Source: Candidatus Omnitrophota bacterium
GTDB taxonomy: Bacteria > Omnitrophota > Gorgyraeia > Zapsychrales > Fredricksoniimonadaceae
Assembly: GCA_028870995.1 (NCBI GenBank)
Contig: JAGWOI010000009.1
Coordinates: 7,085 to 71,084 of the forward strand
Reading direction: 5' to 3'
DNA length: 64,000 bases
In this document: in pieces, positions 1,816 to 39,285 of the stretch
Numbering within the stretch: the first letter of the stretch is position 1
How the letters are laid out: every line of letters begins with the position of its first letter
Translations under genes and position numbers: made by a program
Notes under the pieces: model-generated
What the model was told of the DNA's origin: nothing
What the model saw: the letters and a program-made list of their open reading frames with translations, nothing else
The model's database searches: none

Positions 1816-2562
1816 GTGGGTCAAAAAGTTCATCCGTTAGCCTTGAGACTTGGATATACTAAAAATTGGCGCAGCATCTGGTTTGCCCAGCGTCAGGACT
1901 ATTCCGCAAATATTAAGCAGGACTTCAAGATCCGCCGGTATATCCGTGAAAAATTTGAGCAGGCCGCCGTTTCCATGGTGGTCATCGAGCGCCTGGCCGA
2001 ACAGATCAAGGTCCGCATCCATACCGCGCGTCCCGGCGTCATCATCGGCCGCCGCGGGGCCGACATCGACCGTTTGCGCGCCGAGCTCAAGGACATCACC
2101 AAAAAGGACATGGACAAGCTGGTGGTCGATATCCAGGAGATCAAGAACCCCAATACCGACGCCCAATTGGTGGCCCAGACCGTGGCCTTCCAGCTGGAAA
2201 AGCGCGTGGCGTTCCGCCGTGCCATGAAGCGTTCCATCGAGCAGGCCCGCGCCGCCGGTGCCAAAGGCATCAAGATCCGCTGCGCCGGACGCTTGGGCGG
2301 TGCTGAAATGGCCCGCACCGAGAAGTATCATGAAGGCAAGGTGCCGCTGCAGACCCTGCGCGCCGACATCGATTATGGTTTCGCCGAGGCCAAGACCACC
2401 TACGGTTTGCTGGGGATCAAGGTTTGGATTTATAAAGGCGATGTGATCAAGGACCAGGAAGAGATCGAGGCCAAAGCCGCGGCTGCTGCGGTAGTTCCTT
2501 CAGCCGCACCGGCAGCTGAAGCTCCCGCTGCCGCACCTGTGACGGAAACAGCTCAATCATAA
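1816..2562 (+). CDS. rpsC: 30S ribosomal protein S3 (GTG start, Ala/Pro-rich C-terminal tail)
   Basis: MGQKVHPLALRLGYTKNWRSIWFA... with KH and S3-C domain motifs. C-terminal tail is AAAAAVVPSAAPAAEAPAAAP. Confidence 0.95.
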   Translation: MGQKVHPLALRLGYTKNWRSIWFAQRQDYSANIKQDFKIRRYIREKFEQAAVSMVVIERLAEQIKVRIHTARPGVIIGRRGADIDRLRAELKDITKKDMDKLVVDIQEIKNPNTDAQLVAQTVAFQLEKRVAFRRAMKRSIEQARAAGAKGIKIRCAGRLGGAEMARTEKYHEGKVPLQTLRADIDYGFAEAKTTYGLLGIKVWIYKGDVIKDQEEIEAKAAAAAVVPSAAPAAEAPAAAPVTETAQS

Positions 2563-2588
2563 TTTTGGTAAGGTAGGAGAAATTTGTT

Positions 2589-3005
2589 ATGTTATTAATG
2601 CCTAAGAGAGTCAAGTACCGCAAAACGCAAAAAGGGAAGTCCCGCGGCATTGCGACCACCGGCAACCAGCTGCACTACGGCGAGTATGGTTTGAAAGCCA
2701 TTGAGAACGGGTTCGTTCCGGCGCGCCAGTTGGAAGCTTCCCGTGTCGTGGTGGCCCGTAAACTGCGCGGTTCAGGCAAATTGTGGATCAGCGCTTTCCC
2801 GCACAAGTCCATCACCAAAAAACCGGCGGAAACCCGTATGGGTAAGGGCAAGGGTGATCTGGACCATTGGGTGGCCGTGGTCAAGCGCGGCAAGGTTATT
2901 TTTGAAATAGGCGGTATCCCGGAAGATTTTGCCAAACAGGTCCTGCGCCTGGTGGCCTTTAAACTGTCGGTGAAAACCAGATTTGTGGTCCGCGGGACCC
3001 ATTAA
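2589..3005 (+). CDS. rplP: 50S ribosomal protein L16
   Basis: MLLMPKRVKYRKTQKGKSRGIATTGNQLHYGEYGLKA. Confidence 0.95.
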   Translation: MLLMPKRVKYRKTQKGKSRGIATTGNQLHYGEYGLKAIENGFVPARQLEASRVVVARKLRGSGKLWISAFPHKSITKKPAETRMGKGKGDLDHWVAVVKRGKVIFEIGGIPEDFAKQVLRLVAFKLSVKTRFVVRGTH

Positions 3006-3017
3006 TAGAGGTATCTT

Positions 3018-3221
3018 ATGAAGATGAAGGATTTGACGAATTTAACGGAAGACGATTTGATCACCAAGGAAAAGCAGCTTAAGAAAGAGCTGTTTGACAT
3101 TGAGTCTCATCGCCAGATGGGCCGCGTCGAGAAGCCGGCCAGTTCCCGCAATATCAGAAGGGACATTGCGCGCATATTAACGGTTTTAAATGAGAGAAAA
3201 TCCAATGGAAAAAAGAGCTAA
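3018..3221 (+). CDS. rpmC: 50S ribosomal protein L29
   Basis: 67 aa. MKMKDLTNLTEDDLITKEKQLKKELFDIESHRQMGRVEKPASSRNIRRDIARILTVLNER. Confidence 0.93.
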   Translation: MKMKDLTNLTEDDLITKEKQLKKELFDIESHRQMGRVEKPASSRNIRRDIARILTVLNERKSNGKKS

Positions 3222-3465
3222 CCGCCGTCGGTTTTTAACTGCCGTGGTCATCAGCGATAAGATGGACAAGACCCGCGTCGTCCAGGTCCAGAACGTCCAG
3301 AAGCACGGCAAATATGAAAAGCAGGTGCGTGATTTTACCCGATACAAGGCGCATGATGAGAAAAATGCCGCCAAGGCCGGTGATGTGGTGCGTATCATGG
3401 AAACGCGGCCTTTATCCAAGGACAAGCGCTGGGTCATCAGCGAGATTGTCGGCTCAAAAGTCTAA
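3205..3465 (+). CDS. rpsQ: 30S ribosomal protein S17
   Basis: MEKRANRRRFLTAVVISDKMDKTRVVQVQNVQKHGKYEKQVRDFTRYKAHDEK. The ATG at 3205 is preferred over the track start at 3190. Overlaps the rpmC 3' end. Confidence 0.9.
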   Translation: MEKRANRRRFLTAVVISDKMDKTRVVQVQNVQKHGKYEKQVRDFTRYKAHDEKNAAKAGDVVRIMETRPLSKDKRWVISEIVGSKV

Positions 3466-3476
3466 AAGGGGGGCGT

Positions 3477-3845
3477 ATGATCCAATTAAAGACAATTCTA
3501 GATGTGGCTGACAATACCGGCGCCCGCAAAGCTTCCCTGATCGGCGTTTTGAAATCCAAAGGCAAAGGCTGGGCCAAGGTGGGCGATATTGTGAAGGTCA
3601 ATGTCAAGGAAAGCGCCCCGGATGCCGCCATTAAAAAGGGCAGCATGGCCAAGGGCATCATCGTGCGCACCAAGAAGGCGGTCCGCCGCCAGGACGGCAC
3701 CTATGTGCGTTTTGATACCAACGCGGTGGTCATTATCGACGATGCCGGCAATCCCAAGGGCACCCGTGTCTTCGGTCCCGTGGCCCGCGAGCTGCGTAAC
3801 ATGGAATTCATGAAAATAATTTCTTTAGCTCCAGAGGTAGTATAA
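3477..3845 (+). CDS. rplN: 50S ribosomal protein L14
   Basis: MIQLKTILDVADNTGARKASLIGVLKSKGKG. Confidence 0.96.
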   Translation: MIQLKTILDVADNTGARKASLIGVLKSKGKGWAKVGDIVKVNVKESAPDAAIKKGSMAKGIIVRTKKAVRRQDGTYVRFDTNAVVIIDDAGNPKGTRVFGPVARELRNMEFMKIISLAPEVV

Positions 3846-3922: not shown

Positions 3923-4234
3923 ATGCTAAGAATCAGACGTGACGATACGGTGATGGTGATGGCCGGCAAGGACAAGGGCAAGACCGGAAAGGTCGTCCGG
4001 GTTTTCCCCAAGGCTGGAAAAGCCATTGTGGAAAACGTCAATGTGGTCAAAAAGGCCGTCAAGAAAAGCGACACCTACCCCCAAGGCGGGTATGTGGAGC
4101 TGGAAAAGCCGCTGGCATTGGCGAATTTGATGCTGGTCGACAAGAAAGCGAACAAGGCGACCCGGTTCAAGGTGAAAGTTTTAAAAGACGGCTCCAGAGA
4201 GCGTATCGCGCTTTCAAGCCAGGAATCCATATAG
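3923..4234 (+). CDS. rplX: 50S ribosomal protein L24
   Basis: MLRIRRDDTVMVMAGKDKGKTGKVVRVFPKAGKAIVENVNVVKK (KOW motif). Confidence 0.94.
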   Translation: MLRIRRDDTVMVMAGKDKGKTGKVVRVFPKAGKAIVENVNVVKKAVKKSDTYPQGGYVELEKPLALANLMLVDKKANKATRFKVKVLKDGSRERIALSSQESI

Positions 4235-4289
4235 GCCCTGTTACTTTGATTGCGTAAGGGGTTAAACAATTCGTTCGGAGGTTAAGGCA

Positions 4290-14023: not shown

Positions 14024-14052
14024 CCCCGTCTGAACAAGACGGGGCTTTTTTA
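14024..14052 (+). terminator. Rho-independent terminator after rplQ
   Basis: Hairpin CCCCGTCTGAACAAGACGGGG followed by TTTTTTATT. Confidence 0.8.
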
Positions 14053-14066
14053 TTGCCCTTTTCTCG

Positions 14067-14123
14067 TTGGACCGTTTCCGCGTCAGCCCTTGCTGCTATT
14101 GAGGTTATGATAGAAGTGTCCCC
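14067..14123. repeat. 57-bp bipartite motif TTGGACCGTTTC-N24-GGTTATGATAGAAGTGTCCCC; a second copy lies at 38974-39030
   Basis: Both flanking blocks match block-for-block at the two loci (39 of 41 positions identical) and the 24-nt spacing is the same. Both copies sit just 3' of a conserved gene at the edge of AT-rich DNA. Confidence 0.7.
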
Positions 14124-14129
14124 TTGCCT

Positions 14130-14294
14130 GGTTAAGCCGGTATTGCTCCCGAAACGGGGATATTTTCGCCGTCCGCTACGCTTTACGGCTCGGTTTCTAT
14201 CGCGATAAGGCATACGCGGAAACCTCGCCGTAAAACCTTGCGGACATTTGGCGAAAAATCCCTGAATGTTTCGTTCCGCAATACCGGCTTAACC
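14130..14294. repeat. Giant imperfect palindrome, family 1, copy 1 (165 bp)
   Basis: Terminal arms are GGTTAAGCCGGTATTGC / GCAATACCGGCTTAACC. The core GAAACGGGGATATTTTCGCCGTCCGCTACG...CGCGGAAACCTCGCCGTAAAACCTTGCGGACATTTGGCGAAAAATCCCTGAATGTTTC is shared with the copies at 25634-25810 and 26635-26802. Confidence 0.9.
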
Positions 14295-14313
14295 GTAGAG
14301 GATACCATTTCTG

Positions 14314-14343
14314 TTAGCATATGCAAATCATTCTGGTATAATT
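14314..14343 (+). promoter_or_regulatory. Near-consensus sigma70 promoter with extended -10: TTAGCA, 17-nt spacer ending TGG, then TATAAT
   Basis: -35 TTAGCA (14314-14319), 17-nt spacer, TGn extension, -10 TATAAT (14338-14343). This lies 15 nt upstream of the island's first ORF. Confidence 0.7.
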
Positions 14344-14357
14344 AGAAATTCCTAAAT

Positions 14358-14768
14358 ATGACACTAAAGCAGAAAAAATTTCTTGGTCGAGAGAGCCTTA
14401 GAGAATCTTGGGTTAAAAGCACAGATACTCCTTTACGTTTTTTTGTTCAGCTATTATTTATAATTGAAGGAACTCTGGGGCTGGTATTTATTGCAGGAGT
14501 TAAATATAATTTGGACAAAACTATTTTAATTTGGATCTTTTTGTCCTTAGTTGGACTTGGCGGACTTGCTTTAATAATGGTTTTTCTACTTGTTGTTTTT
14601 TTTCCAAAGAATTTAGTGTTTGATAAAGATGCTCATTTATTTGAAAGAGCTTTAGAATACGGAGATGACGCGCATATAATGGCGTATTCCCAGTTAAGAA
14701 GTGTGGAATTAATATCTCCTCCAAAACAAATTACAAATCAACGTCAGGAAGGAACTATAAATGAGTAA
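14358..14768 (+). CDS. Hypothetical small membrane protein (2 predicted TM helices); AT-rich
   Basis: 136 aa. Hydrophobic segments FFVQLLFIIEGTLGLVFIAGV and ILIWIFLSLVGLGGLALIMVFLLVVFF. First gene behind the island promoter. I recognise no family. Confidence 0.6.
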   Translation: MTLKQKKFLGRESLRESWVKSTDTPLRFFVQLLFIIEGTLGLVFIAGVKYNLDKTILIWIFLSLVGLGGLALIMVFLLVVFFPKNLVFDKDAHLFERALEYGDDAHIMAYSQLRSVELISPPKQITNQRQEGTINE

Positions 14769-15036
14769 GGCTTTCCTGATAACATATGACTTAAAATATA
14801 AGTCCACACAGAATTATGTGCCTTTTTTTAATGCTATAAGGACTGCTAAATGGTGGCATTATCTTCCAGATGCATGGATTATTATAACTGATAAAGATGC
14901 TACTTATTGGCAAAACACACTGGTTCCACTAACGTTTCAAGGAGATTTTCTACTAATCATTGAAGTAAAACGACAATCTGGCGGGTGGCTTCCTTTAGAA
15001 GCCTGGAATTGGATAAATGAAAATATTCCAACATAA
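14761..15036 (+). CDS. Hypothetical 91-aa protein, translationally coupled to the upstream membrane protein (ATGA overlap)
   Basis: MSKAFLITYDLKYKSTQNYVPFFNAIRTAKWWHYLPDAWIIITDKDATYWQNTLVPLTFQGDFLLIIEVKRQSGGWLPLEAWNWINENIPT. Trp-rich, with no recognisable family. Its start overlaps the stop of 14358-14768. Confidence 0.55.
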   Translation: MSKAFLITYDLKYKSTQNYVPFFNAIRTAKWWHYLPDAWIIITDKDATYWQNTLVPLTFQGDFLLIIEVKRQSGGWLPLEAWNWINENIPT

Positions 15037-15221
15037 TTGAATATATTTAGTTTTAGAACGAGCCGGGTCCCTGAAAGGGGATAGGTCTGTTTGAATTGAC
15101 AGCCGATCCCCGTCGTGATATTCTACATGCAGAACAAGAAGCATTCCGACCGTAACCATCCCCGCCGCTTCTTATTATCAAACCCCCTTTAATTCGTAGC
15201 AACGACGAAGGATTTACTTTC

Positions 15222-15632
15222 ATGAAGAATAAATCAAGAAAGTCAGGGGAGGATTTTAACCATTGGAACCAGCAGAAGCAAAAGACGCATTTCGACAAGC
15301 AAAGGCCTTTTTTCCATGAACAGGAAGTATGGTTTTGTGCGCTGGGAGTTAATATTGGTTTTGAACAAGATGGCCGGGGCAATGGATTCTTACGACCGGT
15401 TCTGATCCTAAAGAAATTTAATAACGAAATATTCTGGGCTTTGCCCATGACTAAAAATTTAAAGCAAGGGACGTATTACGCTGCCATTTCATTTAGAAAA
15501 AATACCCAAAGCACCTTAATTCTTTCTCAAATTCGCTTAGTTGATGCAAAAAGACTGGTATATAAAGCAGGAGCTGTTAAACAGCAGGATTTTGAATCGA
15601 TTAAAGAGAGGGTTAGGCAAATACTTGCCTAA
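15222..15632 (+). CDS. PemK/MazF-family endoribonuclease toxin-like protein (divergent, with an N-terminal extension); no cognate antitoxin ORF detected
   Basis: ...QEVWFCALGVNIGFEQDGRGNGFLRPVLILKKFNNEIFWALPMT...LILSQIRLVDAKRLVYKAGAVKQQDFESIKERV. This parallels the MazF pattern of a G-rich loop, RPxLIL, then ADQVKSID-KRL...G.L....I. Confidence 0.6.
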   Translation: MKNKSRKSGEDFNHWNQQKQKTHFDKQRPFFHEQEVWFCALGVNIGFEQDGRGNGFLRPVLILKKFNNEIFWALPMTKNLKQGTYYAAISFRKNTQSTLILSQIRLVDAKRLVYKAGAVKQQDFESIKERVRQILA

Positions 15633-15708
15633 AAAAATTAACCCCCGTTCTTGACGGGGGAGGGCCTTTCAGCCATTTGTGGTTTAAGTATAACATGGCA
15701 TATGATTA

Positions 15709-15953
15709 TGTCAAACGTTAAAAAGAGGTGTCACATGGGAAAAACAAAAAGTTTTCTGTTTGACGCAAAAGAAACGAAATATTTGTGGAGATATTCGGAT
15801 GATGCTATGCGTACAACAAGAAGGTTAAGTGAAATGTATCCAGATATCCCTAAGAAGCTCGATGCTGTAGTACATGTTATCGAATTTCACAAGTTAACAA
15901 GTATACCAAGGAGTAAAAGAACAAAAATATTGAATTGGTTAGATAAGGAATAA
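15709..15953 (+). CDS. Hypothetical protein (start ambiguous; the ORF track gives 15651-15953)
   Basis: MSNVKKRCHMGKTKSFLFDAKETKYLWRYSDDAMRTTRRLSEMYPDIPKKLDAVVHVIEFHKLTSIPRSKRTKILNWLDKE. The track start at 15651 overlaps the upstream hairpin, so an internal ATG (15709 or 15736) is more likely. Confidence 0.45.
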
Positions 15954-15965
15954 AAGGGAGGGGAG

Positions 15966-16397
15966 ATGCCCAAAAAGCCCGTCAAAAAATGCTGCATGTG
16001 CGGCAAGCCGGTCTTCTCGCCCAAATCCATCTATTGCCGTGACTGTTCTCATTTCAGCGCCCGGATGTCCGATGAAAGGTTTTCACCGGAAACCCGCCAA
16101 CAGCTTTGGAATTACGTCCGCCGTAACAAAGGCTTTTACTGTTATTACACCGGTTTAAAACTCGATGTGTTTGATTACGCGAGTCCTTATTTCCTGGAGT
16201 TTGACCATGTCACACCGCAAAACCCCAAGAAGATCGTGATGTGCTGCGCCTGGTTCAATGAAATTAAAGGGGACATGACCTTAAACGAATTAAAGGGTTC
16301 TGTTAAGCAGCTCTTTAACTACTGGTTTAAGGGTATAAAAATAAAAAAGCGAAAATTCCGCTATTGGTACCGCCTTATCCCTGATTTTTGTAAATAA
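15966..16397 (+). CDS. Small free-standing HNH endonuclease with an N-terminal zinc ribbon
   Basis: N-terminus CCMCGKPVFSPKSIYCRDCSHF (a 4-Cys motif). The HNH core is EFDHVTPQNPKKIVMCCAWFNEIKGDMTLNEL (His...Asn...Asn/Lys). Confidence 0.7.
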   Translation: MPKKPVKKCCMCGKPVFSPKSIYCRDCSHFSARMSDERFSPETRQQLWNYVRRNKGFYCYYTGLKLDVFDYASPYFLEFDHVTPQNPKKIVMCCAWFNEIKGDMTLNELKGSVKQLFNYWFKGIKIKKRKFRYWYRLIPDFCK

Positions 16398-16430
16398 TTT
16401 TGCTCCTCTTCGTAGTGCCCTCGGGAAGGG

Positions 16431-16459
16431 TTGACTTGCCCCTATAATTTCTATATAAT
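16431..16459 (+). promoter_or_regulatory. Consensus sigma70 promoter TTGACT-17-TATAAT upstream of lysS
   Basis: -35 TTGACT at 16431-16436, exact 17-nt spacer, -10 TATAAT at 16454-16459, 47 nt before the lysS start. Confidence 0.7.
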
Positions 16460-16506
16460 GCCCTGTCCAGATATTCTTATATTAATTTTATATAATATGG
16501 TGGTCT

Positions 16507-25633: not shown

Positions 25634-25810
25634 GCGTATAGGTTAACCGGTATTGCTTCAGAAACGGGGATATTTTTGCCGTCCGCTACGGTTTACAGCT
25701 CGGCTGCTATCGCGATAAGGCATTCGCGGCAGCCTCGCTGTAAAGCCTTGCGGACATTTGGCAAAAAATCTCTGATCGTTTCTGAAGCAATACCGGCTTA
25801 ACCTATACGC
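25634..25810. repeat. Giant imperfect palindrome, family 1, copy 2 (177 bp)
   Basis: Arms are GCGTATAGGTTAACCGGTATTGCTTCAGAAACG / CGTTTCTGAAGCAATACCGGCTTAACCTATACGC. The core is shared with copies 1 and 3, with compensatory changes between the arms. Confidence 0.9.
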
Positions 25811-26634: not shown

Positions 26635-26802
26635 GGATGGATAGGTAGGATGTTTTCAGAACGGGGATATTTCCGCCGTCCGCTACGGTTTATGGCTCGG
26701 TTTCTATCGCAATAAAGCATACGCGGAAACCTCGCCATAAAACCTTGCGGACATTTGGCGGAAAATCCCTGAATATTCTGAAAACATCCTACCTATCCAT
26801 CC
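26635..26802. repeat. Giant imperfect palindrome, family 1, copy 3 (168 bp)
   Basis: Arms are GGATGGATAGGTAGGATGTTTTCAGAA / TTCTGAAAACATCCTACCTATCCATCC. The core is conserved while the outer arms differ from copies 1 and 2 yet remain perfectly self-complementary. Confidence 0.9.
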
Positions 26803-38954: not shown

Positions 38955-38985
38955 TTGGACCGTTTCAAATTAGTTGGACCGTTTC
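38948..38985. repeat. Perfect tandem duplication, 2 x 19 bp (AAATTAGTTGGACCGTTTC), which includes the mtnA stop codon
   Basis: 38948-38966 and 38967-38985 are identical. The second unit begins the 57-bp motif (38974-39030) that is shared with 14067-14123. Confidence 0.85.
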
Positions 38986-39285
38986 TACGGGAACCTATGA
39001 GACTCTTAGGGTTATGGCAGAAGTGTCCCCAAAACTTGAAGGGAATGGACCAAGTAGAGTCAATTCACCTTCTCCCAAGGGTTTCATATAATTTCCCAAT
39101 TCGATATCACAGTTTGTGATCTTAAGTCAGGGTGGTTCGCGCAAACCGCGACAAAAAGATTATCTCCATATTCCAGGCCATTAAGGCCTTATTGTCCAAC
39201 AAAGAAGTGAAATCGAGAAAACGGGCGCCTTTGGGATTTCAAATACCGAAGGGAATTAAGTAGCTGTTTTATTCTTCTCTTGTAG

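What the first reader, a model, noticed from the sequence alone, without database searches (positions are those of the whole stretch)
14358..15036. Overlapping two-gene module (2-TM protein + 91-aa Trp-rich protein) of unknown family at the head of the island
The ATG of the second ORF overlaps the stop of the first (ATGA), which indicates tight co-expression. The first product has two long hydrophobic helices and a ~50-aa soluble tail. The second (MSKAFLITYDLKY...GWLPLEAWNWINEN) matches nothing I can recall.

The N-terminal beta-strand-like ITYDL and the small size are vaguely Cas2/VapD-like, but only weakly. Small membrane-protein plus partner pairs are a recurrent architecture in abortive-infection and toxin-immunity systems.
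Basis: inference. Interest (0 to 1): 0.55.

Follow-up and report, generated by a model that had tools for sequence, protein, structure and literature searches.

The report
Membrane protein plus Cas2-like partner cassette
Two overlapping genes in a foreign low-GC island encode a small two-helix membrane protein and a Cas2/VapD-fold protein from a very large, unstudied family common in phages and plasmids; the two travel together as a mobile cassette, probably a toxin-antitoxin or phage-defence-like module, but its function is untested.

Summary
Both ORFs are real, conserved genes. A (14358-14768, 136 aa) is an N-in/C-in two-TM hairpin with a roughly 54-aa acidic cytoplasmic tail that AlphaFold2 models poorly.

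B's AlphaFold2 model (pLDDT 93.5) is a ferredoxin-like fold whose best PDB matches are Cas2 proteins. 17 of 38 homologues weakly hit Pfam CRISPR_Cas2. B's TYDL motif aligns with the catalytic Asp of the Cas2 protein SSO1404.

B belongs to a large unnamed family: phrog_1090, about 4,960 clusters at 50% identity, spread across many phyla. In temperate phages and small plasmids it is a solo gene.

An A-family gene lies directly upstream of B in 19 intact pairs, and A was never found intact without B. The pairs co-diverge (r=0.81) and both genes show pN far below pS. The other island genes do not travel with the pair.

Best guess (about 0.4): A is a membrane effector held in check by B, as in GhoT/GhoS, CptA/CptB or SpoIISA/B. 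The main rival is that B is a VapD-like nuclease toxin tethered by A.

I rate it a new variant of a known kind, of moderate interest. Function is untested.

The parts
14314..14342 (+). Promoter-like site (TTAGCA, 17-nt spacer, TG-extended TATAAT), 15 nt upstream of A's ATG. It implies a very short leader, and A has no Shine-Dalgarno sequence.
   Evidence: Consensus scan, 10 of 12 matches, plus the sequence itself. This is a pattern match only; function is inferred.
14358..14768 (+). ORF A, a 136-aa two-TM membrane protein of a family with no Pfam, NCBIfam or PHROG match.
   Evidence: pN is far below pS.
14433..14603 (+). TM hairpin of A: TM1 at aa 26-49 with the family motif (T/S)PL.FF..LL.I.E, a short loop, and TM2 at aa 54-82. 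The N-terminus carries a net charge of about +4, so the predicted topology is N-in/C-in.
   Evidence: Hydropathy. AlphaFold2 helices 4-49 and 54-81 with pLDDT 90-94. Alignment A6. The topology is inferred from the positive-inside rule.
14598..14669 (+). Conserved juxtamembrane motif of A, FFPKNLVFDKDAHLFERALEYGDD (aa 81-104). It is the most conserved part of the family. The tail from this motif onward is modelled with low confidence.
   Evidence: Invariant columns F81 F82 P83 N85 L86 V87 F88 D89 K90 A92 L94 G102 D103 in alignment A2. P83, L86 and G102 are kept across the distant members in A6. pLDDT is 35-60 for aa 87-136.
14744..14751 (+). Shine-Dalgarno-like AGGAAGGA for B, lying inside the 3' end of A.
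   Evidence: Sequence. Inference only.
14761..15036 (+). ORF B, a 91-aa Cas2/VapD-fold protein with the motifs TYDL (end of strand 1), WWHYL (strand 2) and GWLP..AWNWI (C-terminal helix). It is a member of phrog_1090.
15067..15092 (+). Weak terminator-like hairpin with a T-rich tail, 30 nt after B's stop codon. It may mark the end of the cassette transcript.
   Evidence: Pattern scan. Weak: 6-bp stem with 3 GC pairs.

Best explanation
A and B form a self-contained, horizontally mobile two-gene cassette of the toxin-antitoxin or abortive-infection kind.

A inserts in the inner membrane as a two-helix hairpin. Its conserved juxtamembrane motif and acidic tail face the cytoplasm, and the tail is probably disordered until it binds a partner. 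B is a cytoplasmic Cas2/VapD-fold protein.

The reading I commit to is that A is the harmful part, a membrane-perturbing effector. B is the partner that keeps A in check, either by binding the cytoplasmic tail or, as GhoS does, by acting on the A transcript. Loss or titration of B, for example during phage infection or after loss of the element, would unleash A.

Shown here: both genes are real and conserved; they are strictly linked and co-diverge; B has a Cas2-like fold; A is a two-TM protein with a cytoplasmic tail; B's family is huge, associated with mobile elements, and pairs with several different membrane proteins.

Inferred only: which partner is toxic, whether the two proteins touch each other, and any role in defence.
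For: Linkage:
- Every A-family gene found in loci picked by B lies directly upstream of B on the same strand, with a gap of -11 to +23 nt.
- A-family genes found independently of B also have B directly downstream: 5 of 5 close metagenomic relatives and 4 of 4 distant ones.
- Across 19 pairs, A-A and B-B identities correlate (r=0.81; Mantel test 0 of 5000 permutations).
- pN is far below pS for both genes.
- The cassette sits between unrelated housekeeping genes in different genomes. The island genes C, D and E never accompany it.

B resembles the Cas2-fold antitoxin GhoS in fold (Foldseek 2llz, probability 0.98, TMq 0.55). GhoS controls GhoT, a two-TM membrane toxin (established knowledge; Wang et al. 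2012, cited in PMC12737573).

Other B homologues are tightly coupled to other membrane proteins:
- PycTM-family proteins, the family of the Pycsar membrane effectors, lie directly downstream in L002 (Pfam PF18967) and L024 (assigned by eye from its similarity to L002's protein; the single PycTM hit is not attributed to a member).
- Proteins with an N-terminal one- or two-TM segment lie directly upstream in L004, L041, L047, L049, L050, L058, L081 and L082.
- A PIN_12 protein lies directly upstream in L054.
One conserved small partner with many swapped effector-like partners is the pattern known for promiscuous antitoxin domains.

The Cas2-type Asp is dispensable in A-paired B proteins: 12 of 19 keep it, against 65 of 68 other locus copies. 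The aromatic residues Y9, W31, W32, Y34, W82 and W84 are kept in 19 of 19. This suggests binding rather than catalysis.

B is a solo gene in 11 phage or viral loci and in small plasmids. That is easier to reconcile with a harmless regulator or antidote than with a toxin.

B has a Shine-Dalgarno sequence, while A has none and a leader of about 9 nt, so B may be translated in excess of A.
Against: - No experiment and no complex prediction was possible, so physical contact between A and B is not shown.
- A's tail is acidic and modelled with low confidence, and A evolves faster than B (mean identity 27% against 38%). Both traits are typical of antitoxins, not toxins.
- The upstream position with translational coupling is the usual antitoxin position.
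- In three loci (L040, L048, L090/L091) TM1 is lost or frameshifted, yet an ORF with TM2 plus the tail is kept just upstream of B. This hints that the tail, not a two-helix pore, is the selected part.
- An A-like anchor is fused to an isochorismatase-like domain with no B nearby in L092, so the hairpin may be a plain membrane anchor.
- Cas2 and VapD relatives are nucleases and toxins by precedent. About half of VapD genes are solo as well (PMC11980593), which weakens the 'solo means harmless' argument.
- B shows no sequence relationship to GhoS (hhalign probability 1.2%), and A shows none to GhoT.
Confidence: 0.4

Rival explanations
1. Reverse polarity. B is a VapD/Cas2-like nuclease toxin, and A is a membrane-tethered antitoxin. 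A's disordered acidic tail wraps B and holds it at the membrane. Membrane damage or proteolysis of A releases B, in the way membrane-bound anti-sigma factors release their sigma factors.
For: - B has a Cas2/VapD-like fold and keeps the Asp at the end of strand 1 in 230 of 274 family members. The Ser that matches the Cas2/VapD catalytic Ser is kept in 218 of 274.
- VapD proteins are toxins, and their antitoxin genes lie adjacent (PMC11980593).
- A is upstream, evolves faster than B, and has an acidic tail modelled with low confidence. These are classical antitoxin traits.
- ORFs with TM2 plus the tail persist when TM1 is lost.
Against: - Asp10 is replaced in 7 of 19 A-paired B proteins (N, S or T in 5; E in 2). 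The window's own B has Asp, not Ser, at position 37.
- B is solo in all 11 phage or viral loci examined and on 3-5 kb plasmids, with no recognisable antitoxin.
- I know of no characterised membrane-embedded antitoxin for a cytoplasmic nuclease (own knowledge).
- The one apparent 'antitoxin-B' pairing, with HicB in L045, is simply a complete hicAB pair lying next to B.
Confidence: 0.25
2. This is not a toxin-antitoxin pair. B is a non-catalytic adaptor or nucleic-acid-binding module with a function of its own, for example a lysogeny-expressed phage gene that affects superinfection or host defences. A merely localises B to the membrane in a subset of lineages.
For: - Roughly half or more of the 75 genome loci have B with no tightly coupled neighbour by mechanical ORF calling, and all phage loci are solo. 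Only 10 of 75 genome loci carry A.
- In phages, B is always antisense within the early region and overlaps a convergent gene. This is a conserved and peculiar placement.
- The most conserved residues are aromatic.
- The A-like anchor is also used for an unrelated enzyme domain in L092.
Against: - The strict A-to-B dependence, the overlapping or closely abutting reading frames (gaps of -38 to +23 nt across the 19 pairs) and the co-divergence all point to a tight functional unit.
- The cassette moves as a two-gene unit into variable and defence-rich regions.
Confidence: 0.25
3. The ORFs are spurious, or they are merely the first two genes of one five-gene island operon with the MazF-like, unknown and HNH-like genes.
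For: They share a strand and a low-GC island with ORFs C, D and E.
Against: - Both families are conserved across phyla and under purifying selection.
- C, D and E have no homologue near any other A-B pair or B gene in about 100 loci.
- A 185-nt gap with a terminator-like site separates B from C.
Confidence: 0.02

Closest known systems
Cas2 (CRISPR adaptation protein; Pfam PF09827, TIGR01573)
   Same: B has the same beta-alpha-beta-beta-alpha-beta ferredoxin-like fold and is about 90 aa. Its best structural matches are Cas2 proteins: 4es1, 7f84, 7mid, 1zpw and the Cas2-like 7vxr, with TMq 0.57-0.70 and probability 1.0. Its Y-D-[IL] at the end of strand 1 aligns with the catalytic D10 of SSO1404. 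There are weak family-model hits in 17 of 38 homologues.
   Different: The window's B gives no hit to the Cas2 models, and no family member gave more than a weak hit. No cas1 gene and no CRISPR array lie nearby. B has its own motifs (WWHYL, GWLP..AWNWI) and an extra C-terminal helix. It is partnered with a membrane protein or is solo in phages.
VapD toxins with VapX, VapY or VapW antitoxins (type II TA; PMC11980593)
   Same: VapD is also a stand-alone Cas2-superfamily small protein on mobile elements. It is either solo (about half of cases) or paired with a small adjacent gene. The VapW precedent shows that a catalytically dead copy can act as the neutraliser. The structural match to VapD is 3ui3, probability 0.93.
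   Different: There is no sequence-level membership. The partner here is a two-TM membrane protein, not an SH3-fold or VapD-like protein. The window's B lacks the Ser equivalent (it has Asp at position 37).
GhoT/GhoS type V toxin-antitoxin system
   Same: GhoT/GhoS is a small two-TM membrane protein plus a roughly 95-aa Cas2-fold cytoplasmic protein encoded by adjacent genes. B matches GhoS (2llz) with probability 0.98 and TMq 0.55.
   Different: There is no sequence relationship. The gene order is reversed: ghoS comes first in E. coli (own knowledge). A is 136 aa with a conserved cytoplasmic tail, while GhoT is 57 aa. Cleavage of the A mRNA by B is untested.
CptA(YgfX)/CptB(SdhE) and SpoIISA/SpoIISB membrane-toxin systems
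   Same: The architecture matches: an inner-membrane toxin with N-terminal TM helices and a cytoplasmic C-terminal part (YgfX is about 135 aa with two TM helices), neutralised by a small soluble protein (own knowledge).
   Different: The folds and sequences are unrelated: SdhE is a helical bundle and SpoIISB is a short peptide. This is an analogy of logic only.
Pycsar PycTM effectors (PF18967)
   Same: PycTM proteins are also membrane effectors of defence systems. PycTM-family genes lie directly downstream of B homologues in L002 and L024. A gave a weak hit to the PADLOC PycTM model (E 0.0021).
   Different: A is not a PycTM. There is no Pfam hit in 13 family members, hhalign probability is 0.2%, and no cyclase gene is nearby.

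Membership tests
Cas2 (PF09827 / TIGR01573) | Ferredoxin-like beta-alpha-beta-beta-alpha-beta fold of about 90 aa | tested here: met
   AlphaFold2 model with pLDDT 93.5 and the element order E3-10, H20-27, E30-32, E38-43, H47-57, E63-68, H79-88. The top Foldseek PDB hits are Cas2 proteins. The structure is predicted, not solved.
Cas2 (PF09827 / TIGR01573) | Conserved metal-binding Asp at the C-terminal end of strand 1 | tested here: met
   D10 in TYDL aligns with D10 of SSO1404 (28 columns only, P=6.6e-4). It is kept in 230 of 274 family members, but in only 12 of 19 A-paired copies.
Cas2 (PF09827 / TIGR01573) | Score above the curated family threshold | tested here: not met
   The window's B gives no hit even at E<=10. 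The best hit among 38 homologues is E=1.6e-4 for PF09827 and 0.018 for TIGR01573.
Cas2 (PF09827 / TIGR01573) | Encoded next to cas1 and a CRISPR array | tested here: not met
   There is no regularly spaced repeat array in the 64-kb window. No Cas1 appears among annotated neighbours in 14 loci with Pfam calls or among the families shown for 135 nearest neighbours (first 25 of 74 families listed).
VapD toxin (type II TA) | Catalytic Asp plus Ser pair | tested here: inconclusive
   The Asp equivalent is present. The Ser equivalent (position 37) is Asp in the window's B, but Ser in 218 of 274 family members. The equivalence is inferred from the Cas2 'Q.SVF' motif against 'HYLDSTW', not from a structural superposition.
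VapD toxin (type II TA) | Adjacent VapX/VapY (SH3-fold) or VapW (VapD-like) antitoxin | tested here: not met
   The partner A is an all-helical two-TM protein.
GhoS/GhoT type V TA | Sequence membership in the GhoS and GhoT families | tested here: not met
   hhalign of B's profile against GhoS gives probability 1.2% (the GhoS sequence was verified against 2llz).
GhoS/GhoT type V TA | The antitoxin cleaves the toxin mRNA, and the toxin depolarises the membrane | not testable with these tools
   This needs RNA cleavage and membrane-potential assays.
Pycsar PycTM effector (PF18967) | Match to the PycTM model and an adjacent pyrimidine cyclase gene | tested here: not met
   Only a weak PADLOC hit at E 0.0021. 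No Pfam hit in 13 members. hhalign probability 0.2%. No cyclase gene in the island.
Generic type II/IV/V toxin-antitoxin module | Two small adjacent co-transcribed genes that are strictly co-inherited and sit on mobile or variable DNA | tested here: met
Generic type II/IV/V toxin-antitoxin module | One product is toxic and the other neutralises it | not testable with these tools
   This needs expression and rescue experiments.

The most novel reading that the evidence does not exclude
B founds a large, unrecognised branch of the Cas2/VapD superfamily (about 5,000 clusters at 50% identity). In this reading it works as a promiscuous, non-catalytic controller or antidote for diverse membrane-damaging effectors, including the A family, other one- and two-TM proteins, and PycTM-like proteins. 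The solo copies that temperate phages and small plasmids carry antisense in their early regions would then be anti-defence 'antidotes' that disarm such host suicide modules.
Probability: 0.15. Interest if true: 0.8.

Novelty: new variant of a known kind. Interest (0 to 1): 0.55.

Why it matters
Cas2 is usually discussed only as the CRISPR adaptation scaffold, with VapD and GhoS as its stand-alone relatives. This finding exposes another stand-alone Cas2-fold family. It is bigger than many named families, has no Pfam model or literature that I could find, is spread over most bacterial phyla, and is enriched on temperate phages and small plasmids. One recurrent form is hard-wired to a dedicated membrane protein.

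If the pair is a membrane-toxin plus Cas2-fold-antitoxin module, GhoST-type logic is far more widespread than the few enterobacterial examples suggest. If the polarity is reversed, it would be a first membrane-tethered antitoxin. Either result would add a testable link between toxin-antitoxin modules and the origin of Cas2.

Tried and rejected
- A as a PycTM relative: a weak PADLOC hit was not borne out by a Pfam scan of 13 members or by hhalign.
- B as GhoS and A as GhoT by sequence: rejected.
- HicB as a cognate partner of B in L045: rejected. A complete hicA-hicB pair precedes B.
- A to E as one five-gene system: rejected.
- The long hairpin upstream of A as a cassette regulator or mobile-element end: it is a host-dispersed palindromic repeat with two more copies in the window.
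- PDB sequence-profile search with B: only noise.
- BFVD viral fold library: no informative hits.
- Fusion proteins in the B family: mostly Pro-rich tails or likely gene-call fusions, not informative.
- A family in IMG/VR viral contigs: none found by pattern scan.
- Literature searches for the family or for phrog_1090: nothing specific.
- The sporadic database name 'SinR family protein' has no support from any model.
- dN/dS proper could not be estimated because synonymous sites are saturated. Only pN against pS is reported.
- A complex (multimer) prediction could not be run with the tools offered.

Full report
**Observation**

The window holds two overlapping ORFs on the + strand. A is 14358-14768 (136 aa) and B is 14761-15036 (91 aa).
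- A's stop codon (TAA) is at 14766-14768 and B's ATG is at 14761.
- B is preceded by AGGAAGGA at 14744-14751.
- A has no Shine-Dalgarno sequence. It starts 15 nt after a TG-extended TATAAT promoter-like site at 14314-14342.
- The genes open a low-GC stretch (33-40% against about 55%) from roughly 14300 to 16500, between rplQ and lysS.
- Exact-match database entries name the source as a Candidatus Omnitrophica MAG.

**The rest of the island**

- ORF C (15222-15632) is PemK/MazF-like (Pfam E 8e-10).
- ORF D (15651-15953) is unknown.
- ORF E (15966-16397) is HNH/endonuclease VII-like.
- None of these three has a homologue near A-B or B in about 100 other loci. The pair is therefore its own unit.

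**Protein A**

- A has no Pfam, NCBIfam or PHROG family.
- AlphaFold2 gives a confident helical hairpin (aa 25-81, pLDDT 90-94) and a low-confidence tail (aa 87-136, pLDDT 35-60).
- The N-terminus is Lys/Arg-rich and the inter-helix loop is 4-6 residues. I infer an N-in/C-in topology with the tail in the cytoplasm.
- The family signature is (T/S)PL.FF..LL.I.E in TM1 and P.NL.F....HL......(Y/F)G just after TM2.

**Protein B**

- The AlphaFold2 model has pLDDT 93.5 and a beta-alpha-beta-beta-alpha-beta fold plus a C-terminal helix.
- The seven best Foldseek matches in the PDB are Cas2 proteins. Further matches include TT1823, the Cas2-like BPSL1038 (TMq 0.70), VapD and GhoS.
- At sequence level, 17 of 38 homologues weakly hit PF09827 (best E 1.6e-4) and 4 of 38 weakly hit TIGR01573.
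- hhalign places LITYDL on LIFYDI of SSO1404, so D10 falls on that enzyme's D10, its catalytic Asp (own knowledge). The SSO1404 sequence was verified against 2i8e.
- The window's own B reaches no curated threshold. I call it a remote Cas2/VapD-superfamily member, not a Cas2.
- There is no CRISPR array in the window and no cas1 gene beside any homologue examined.

**Size and spread of the B family**

- A profile search of 1.84 billion cluster representatives found 4,963 proteins at E<=1e-3 and 1,448 at E<=1e-10, nearly all 86-100 aa.
- B matches phrog_1090, a family of unknown function.
- A scan of GTDB species genomes returned 75 loci. They come from Actinomycetota, Pseudomonadota, Bacillota, Bacteroidota, Planctomycetota, Chloroflexota, CPR groups and others.
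- tblastn found B in 89 phage records (Staphylococcus, Enterococcus phiFL, Clostridium CP51, Bacillus phi4B1, Klebsiella P2-like and others). It also found B in 97 plasmids, including 3-5 kb ColE1-type plasmids.
- Depositors' names are mostly 'hypothetical protein', with occasional 'SinR' or 'CRISPR-associated endoribonuclease'.
- Across 274 distinct sequences the most conserved positions are Y9, D10 (84%), Y19, W31, H33 (90%), S37 (80%), W39, D62 (93%), G75, W82 and W84.

**Do A and B travel together?**

Yes, in the direction from A to B.
- An HMM search and a jackhmmer search over all six-frame ORFs of the fetched loci found 14 A-family ORFs. Every one lies directly upstream of B on the same strand.
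- Searching from the A side, 5 of 5 close metagenomic A homologues and 4 of 4 distant ones found with a family profile have B immediately downstream.
- The exceptions are informative. L092 fuses an A-like hairpin and motif to an isochorismatase-like domain and has no B. L093 is a fragment.
- In L040, L048 and L090/L091, TM1 is lost or frameshifted while an ORF with TM2 plus the tail remains in front of B.
- In 19 intact pairs, A-A and B-B identities correlate (r=0.81; Mantel 0 of 5000). A diverges faster, at 27% mean identity against 38% for B.
- Synonymous sites are saturated, but pN is far below pS throughout. For example, B in the window against L090 gives 0.14 against 0.68, and A in the window against L087 gives 0.28 against 0.68.

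The reverse does not hold.
- Only 10 of 75 genome loci carry A.
- Other loci have different tightly coupled partners. These include proteins with N-terminal one- or two-TM segments upstream (L004, L041, L047, L049, L050, L058, L081, L082) and PycTM-family proteins downstream (L002, L024). They also include a lamin-tail-domain protein upstream in L002 and a PIN_12 protein upstream in L054.
- Many loci, roughly half by mechanical ORF calling, show B alone.
- The apparent HicB partner in L045 is a complete hicAB pair lying next to B.

**B in phages**

In all 11 phage or viral loci examined, B is a single gene. In the four annotated temperate Firmicutes-type phage or prophage loci (L001, L086, L098, L099) it sits among early or replication genes on the opposite strand. 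In 10 of the 11 loci a convergent gene overlaps its 3' end by 4-23 nt. The exception is the P2-like Klebsiella phage (L085), where the nearest convergent gene is 56 nt away and the neighbours are portal and terminase genes. No A gene and no TM neighbour occurs in any of them.

**Genomic settings**

Neighbours include type I and type III restriction genes, TaqI, Lamassu LmuB, GmrSD, Fic, a Schlafen-like ATPase, Zeta toxin, PIN, HigB-like Gp49, ImmA/IrrE-XRE pairs, integrases and transposases. Plain housekeeping genes also occur. The pattern is that of small cargo dropped into variable regions.

**Mechanism**

What is shown is a strictly linked, co-diverging pair: a two-TM protein with a cytoplasmic tail, and a Cas2-fold cytoplasmic protein. 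Polarity is not shown.

I favour A as the membrane effector and B as its controller, at about 0.4. The reasons are:
- B pairs with several unrelated membrane proteins, including the PycTM effector family.
- The Cas2-type Asp is lost in 7 of 19 A-paired copies, while the aromatic residues are invariant. This comparison is not corrected for phylogeny, and the comparison set was selected by sequence pattern.
- B is widespread as a solo gene on phages and plasmids.
- B, but not A, has a ribosome-binding site.
- There are precedents: GhoT/GhoS (a Cas2-fold antitoxin), CptA/CptB and SpoIISA/SpoIISB.

The reverse polarity, with B as a VapD-like toxin and A as a membrane-tethered antitoxin, gets about 0.25. 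It is supported by:
- A's upstream position.
- A's faster evolution.
- A's acidic, low-confidence tail.
- The retention of TM2-plus-tail ORFs when TM1 is lost.
- The toxin precedent of VapD, which is also solo in about half of cases (PMC11980593).

A non-TA adaptor role gets about 0.25.

**Novelty**

I found no Pfam family, no PADLOC model and no paper that covers either protein. The pair fits the general kind 'small membrane protein plus Cas2-fold partner' (GhoST) and 'stand-alone Cas2/VapD protein with an adjacent neutraliser' (VapXD, VapWD). It fails sequence membership in each of these families. I therefore class it as a new variant of a known kind, with moderate interest that depends on experiments.

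**Caveats**

- Gene calls in my scripts are mechanical ORFs.
- TM segments come from hydropathy and AlphaFold2.
- The structure is predicted, and model coordinates could not be inspected.
- The loci found through B were selected with the WWHYLDS and GWL..AWN sequence patterns, which biases residue statistics at those positions.
- The Mantel correlation shows shared history, not physical interaction.

Noticed in passing
window 14108-14320 (core 14130-14294); copies at 25641-25803 and 26644-26779; flanking piece 14066-14123 resembles 38973-39030: This is a palindromic dispersed repeat of about 165 nt that folds into one long hairpin (fold of 14050-14357: MFE -118.8 against -80.4±5.3 for shuffles, z=-7.3). 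It lies between the rplQ terminator and A's promoter and has at least three copies in the window at 84-93% identity. It looks MITE- or REP-like, has host-like GC content and no Rfam match. It may mark insertion-prone intergenic sites.
   Followed up: partly
window 15222-15632: This is a PemK/MazF-like toxin gene (Pfam E 8e-10) with an N-terminal extension of about 35 aa. No recognisable antitoxin ORF lies in the 185-nt gap upstream. The unknown 100-aa ORF D (15651-15953) downstream could be its partner.
   Followed up: no
window 15966-16397: This is a Cys-rich 143-aa ORF with HNH/endonuclease VII-like hits (phrog_1035, E 3.5e-7). It is the last gene of the low-GC island before lysS. A strong promoter-like site (TTGACT, 17-nt spacer, TATAAT) at 16431-16459 lies between it and lysS.
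   Followed up: no
L092 95-1081: An A-like two-TM hairpin with the NLVFDK.AH motif is fused to an isochorismatase/nicotinamidase-like domain (VVDVQNDF...). No B gene lies downstream. The domain was assigned by eye from the sequence and not scanned.
   Followed up: no
L090 265-674 and L091 219-628: The closest relative of the window's cassette has A split by a frameshift in a T-run between TM1 and TM2, while B is intact. This could be a sequencing error, decay or slippage. The two records may be the same assembly.
   Followed up: partly
L004, L005 and L006 8046-8315; L041 1043-1336 and 1355-1624: Second, diverged B-family paralogues occur within a few kb of, or directly in tandem with, the first copy. 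This is reminiscent of the VapW-VapD duplications described in PMC11980593.
   Followed up: no
L011, L013, L015 and L078 (Actinomycetota) 2495-3694 plus B at 4001-4270; L030 2639-3670: In several actinobacterial loci the nearest large ORF upstream of B (about 400 aa) is at the same coordinates each time. Peptidase_M78 (ImmA/IrrE) was the commonest Pfam family among B's nearest neighbours (5 of 135 scanned). In L030 an HELGH-motif protein with a Cys-rich C-terminus ends 36 nt before B. Which loci carry the M78 hits was not reported by the tool, so the link to these loci is my inference.
   Followed up: no
L085 230-2884 (Klebsiella P2-like phage): A solo B sits next to the portal gene. It lies beside a three-gene operon of hypothetical proteins on the opposite strand, in what is a known defence hotspot of P2-like phages (own knowledge).
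   Followed up: no
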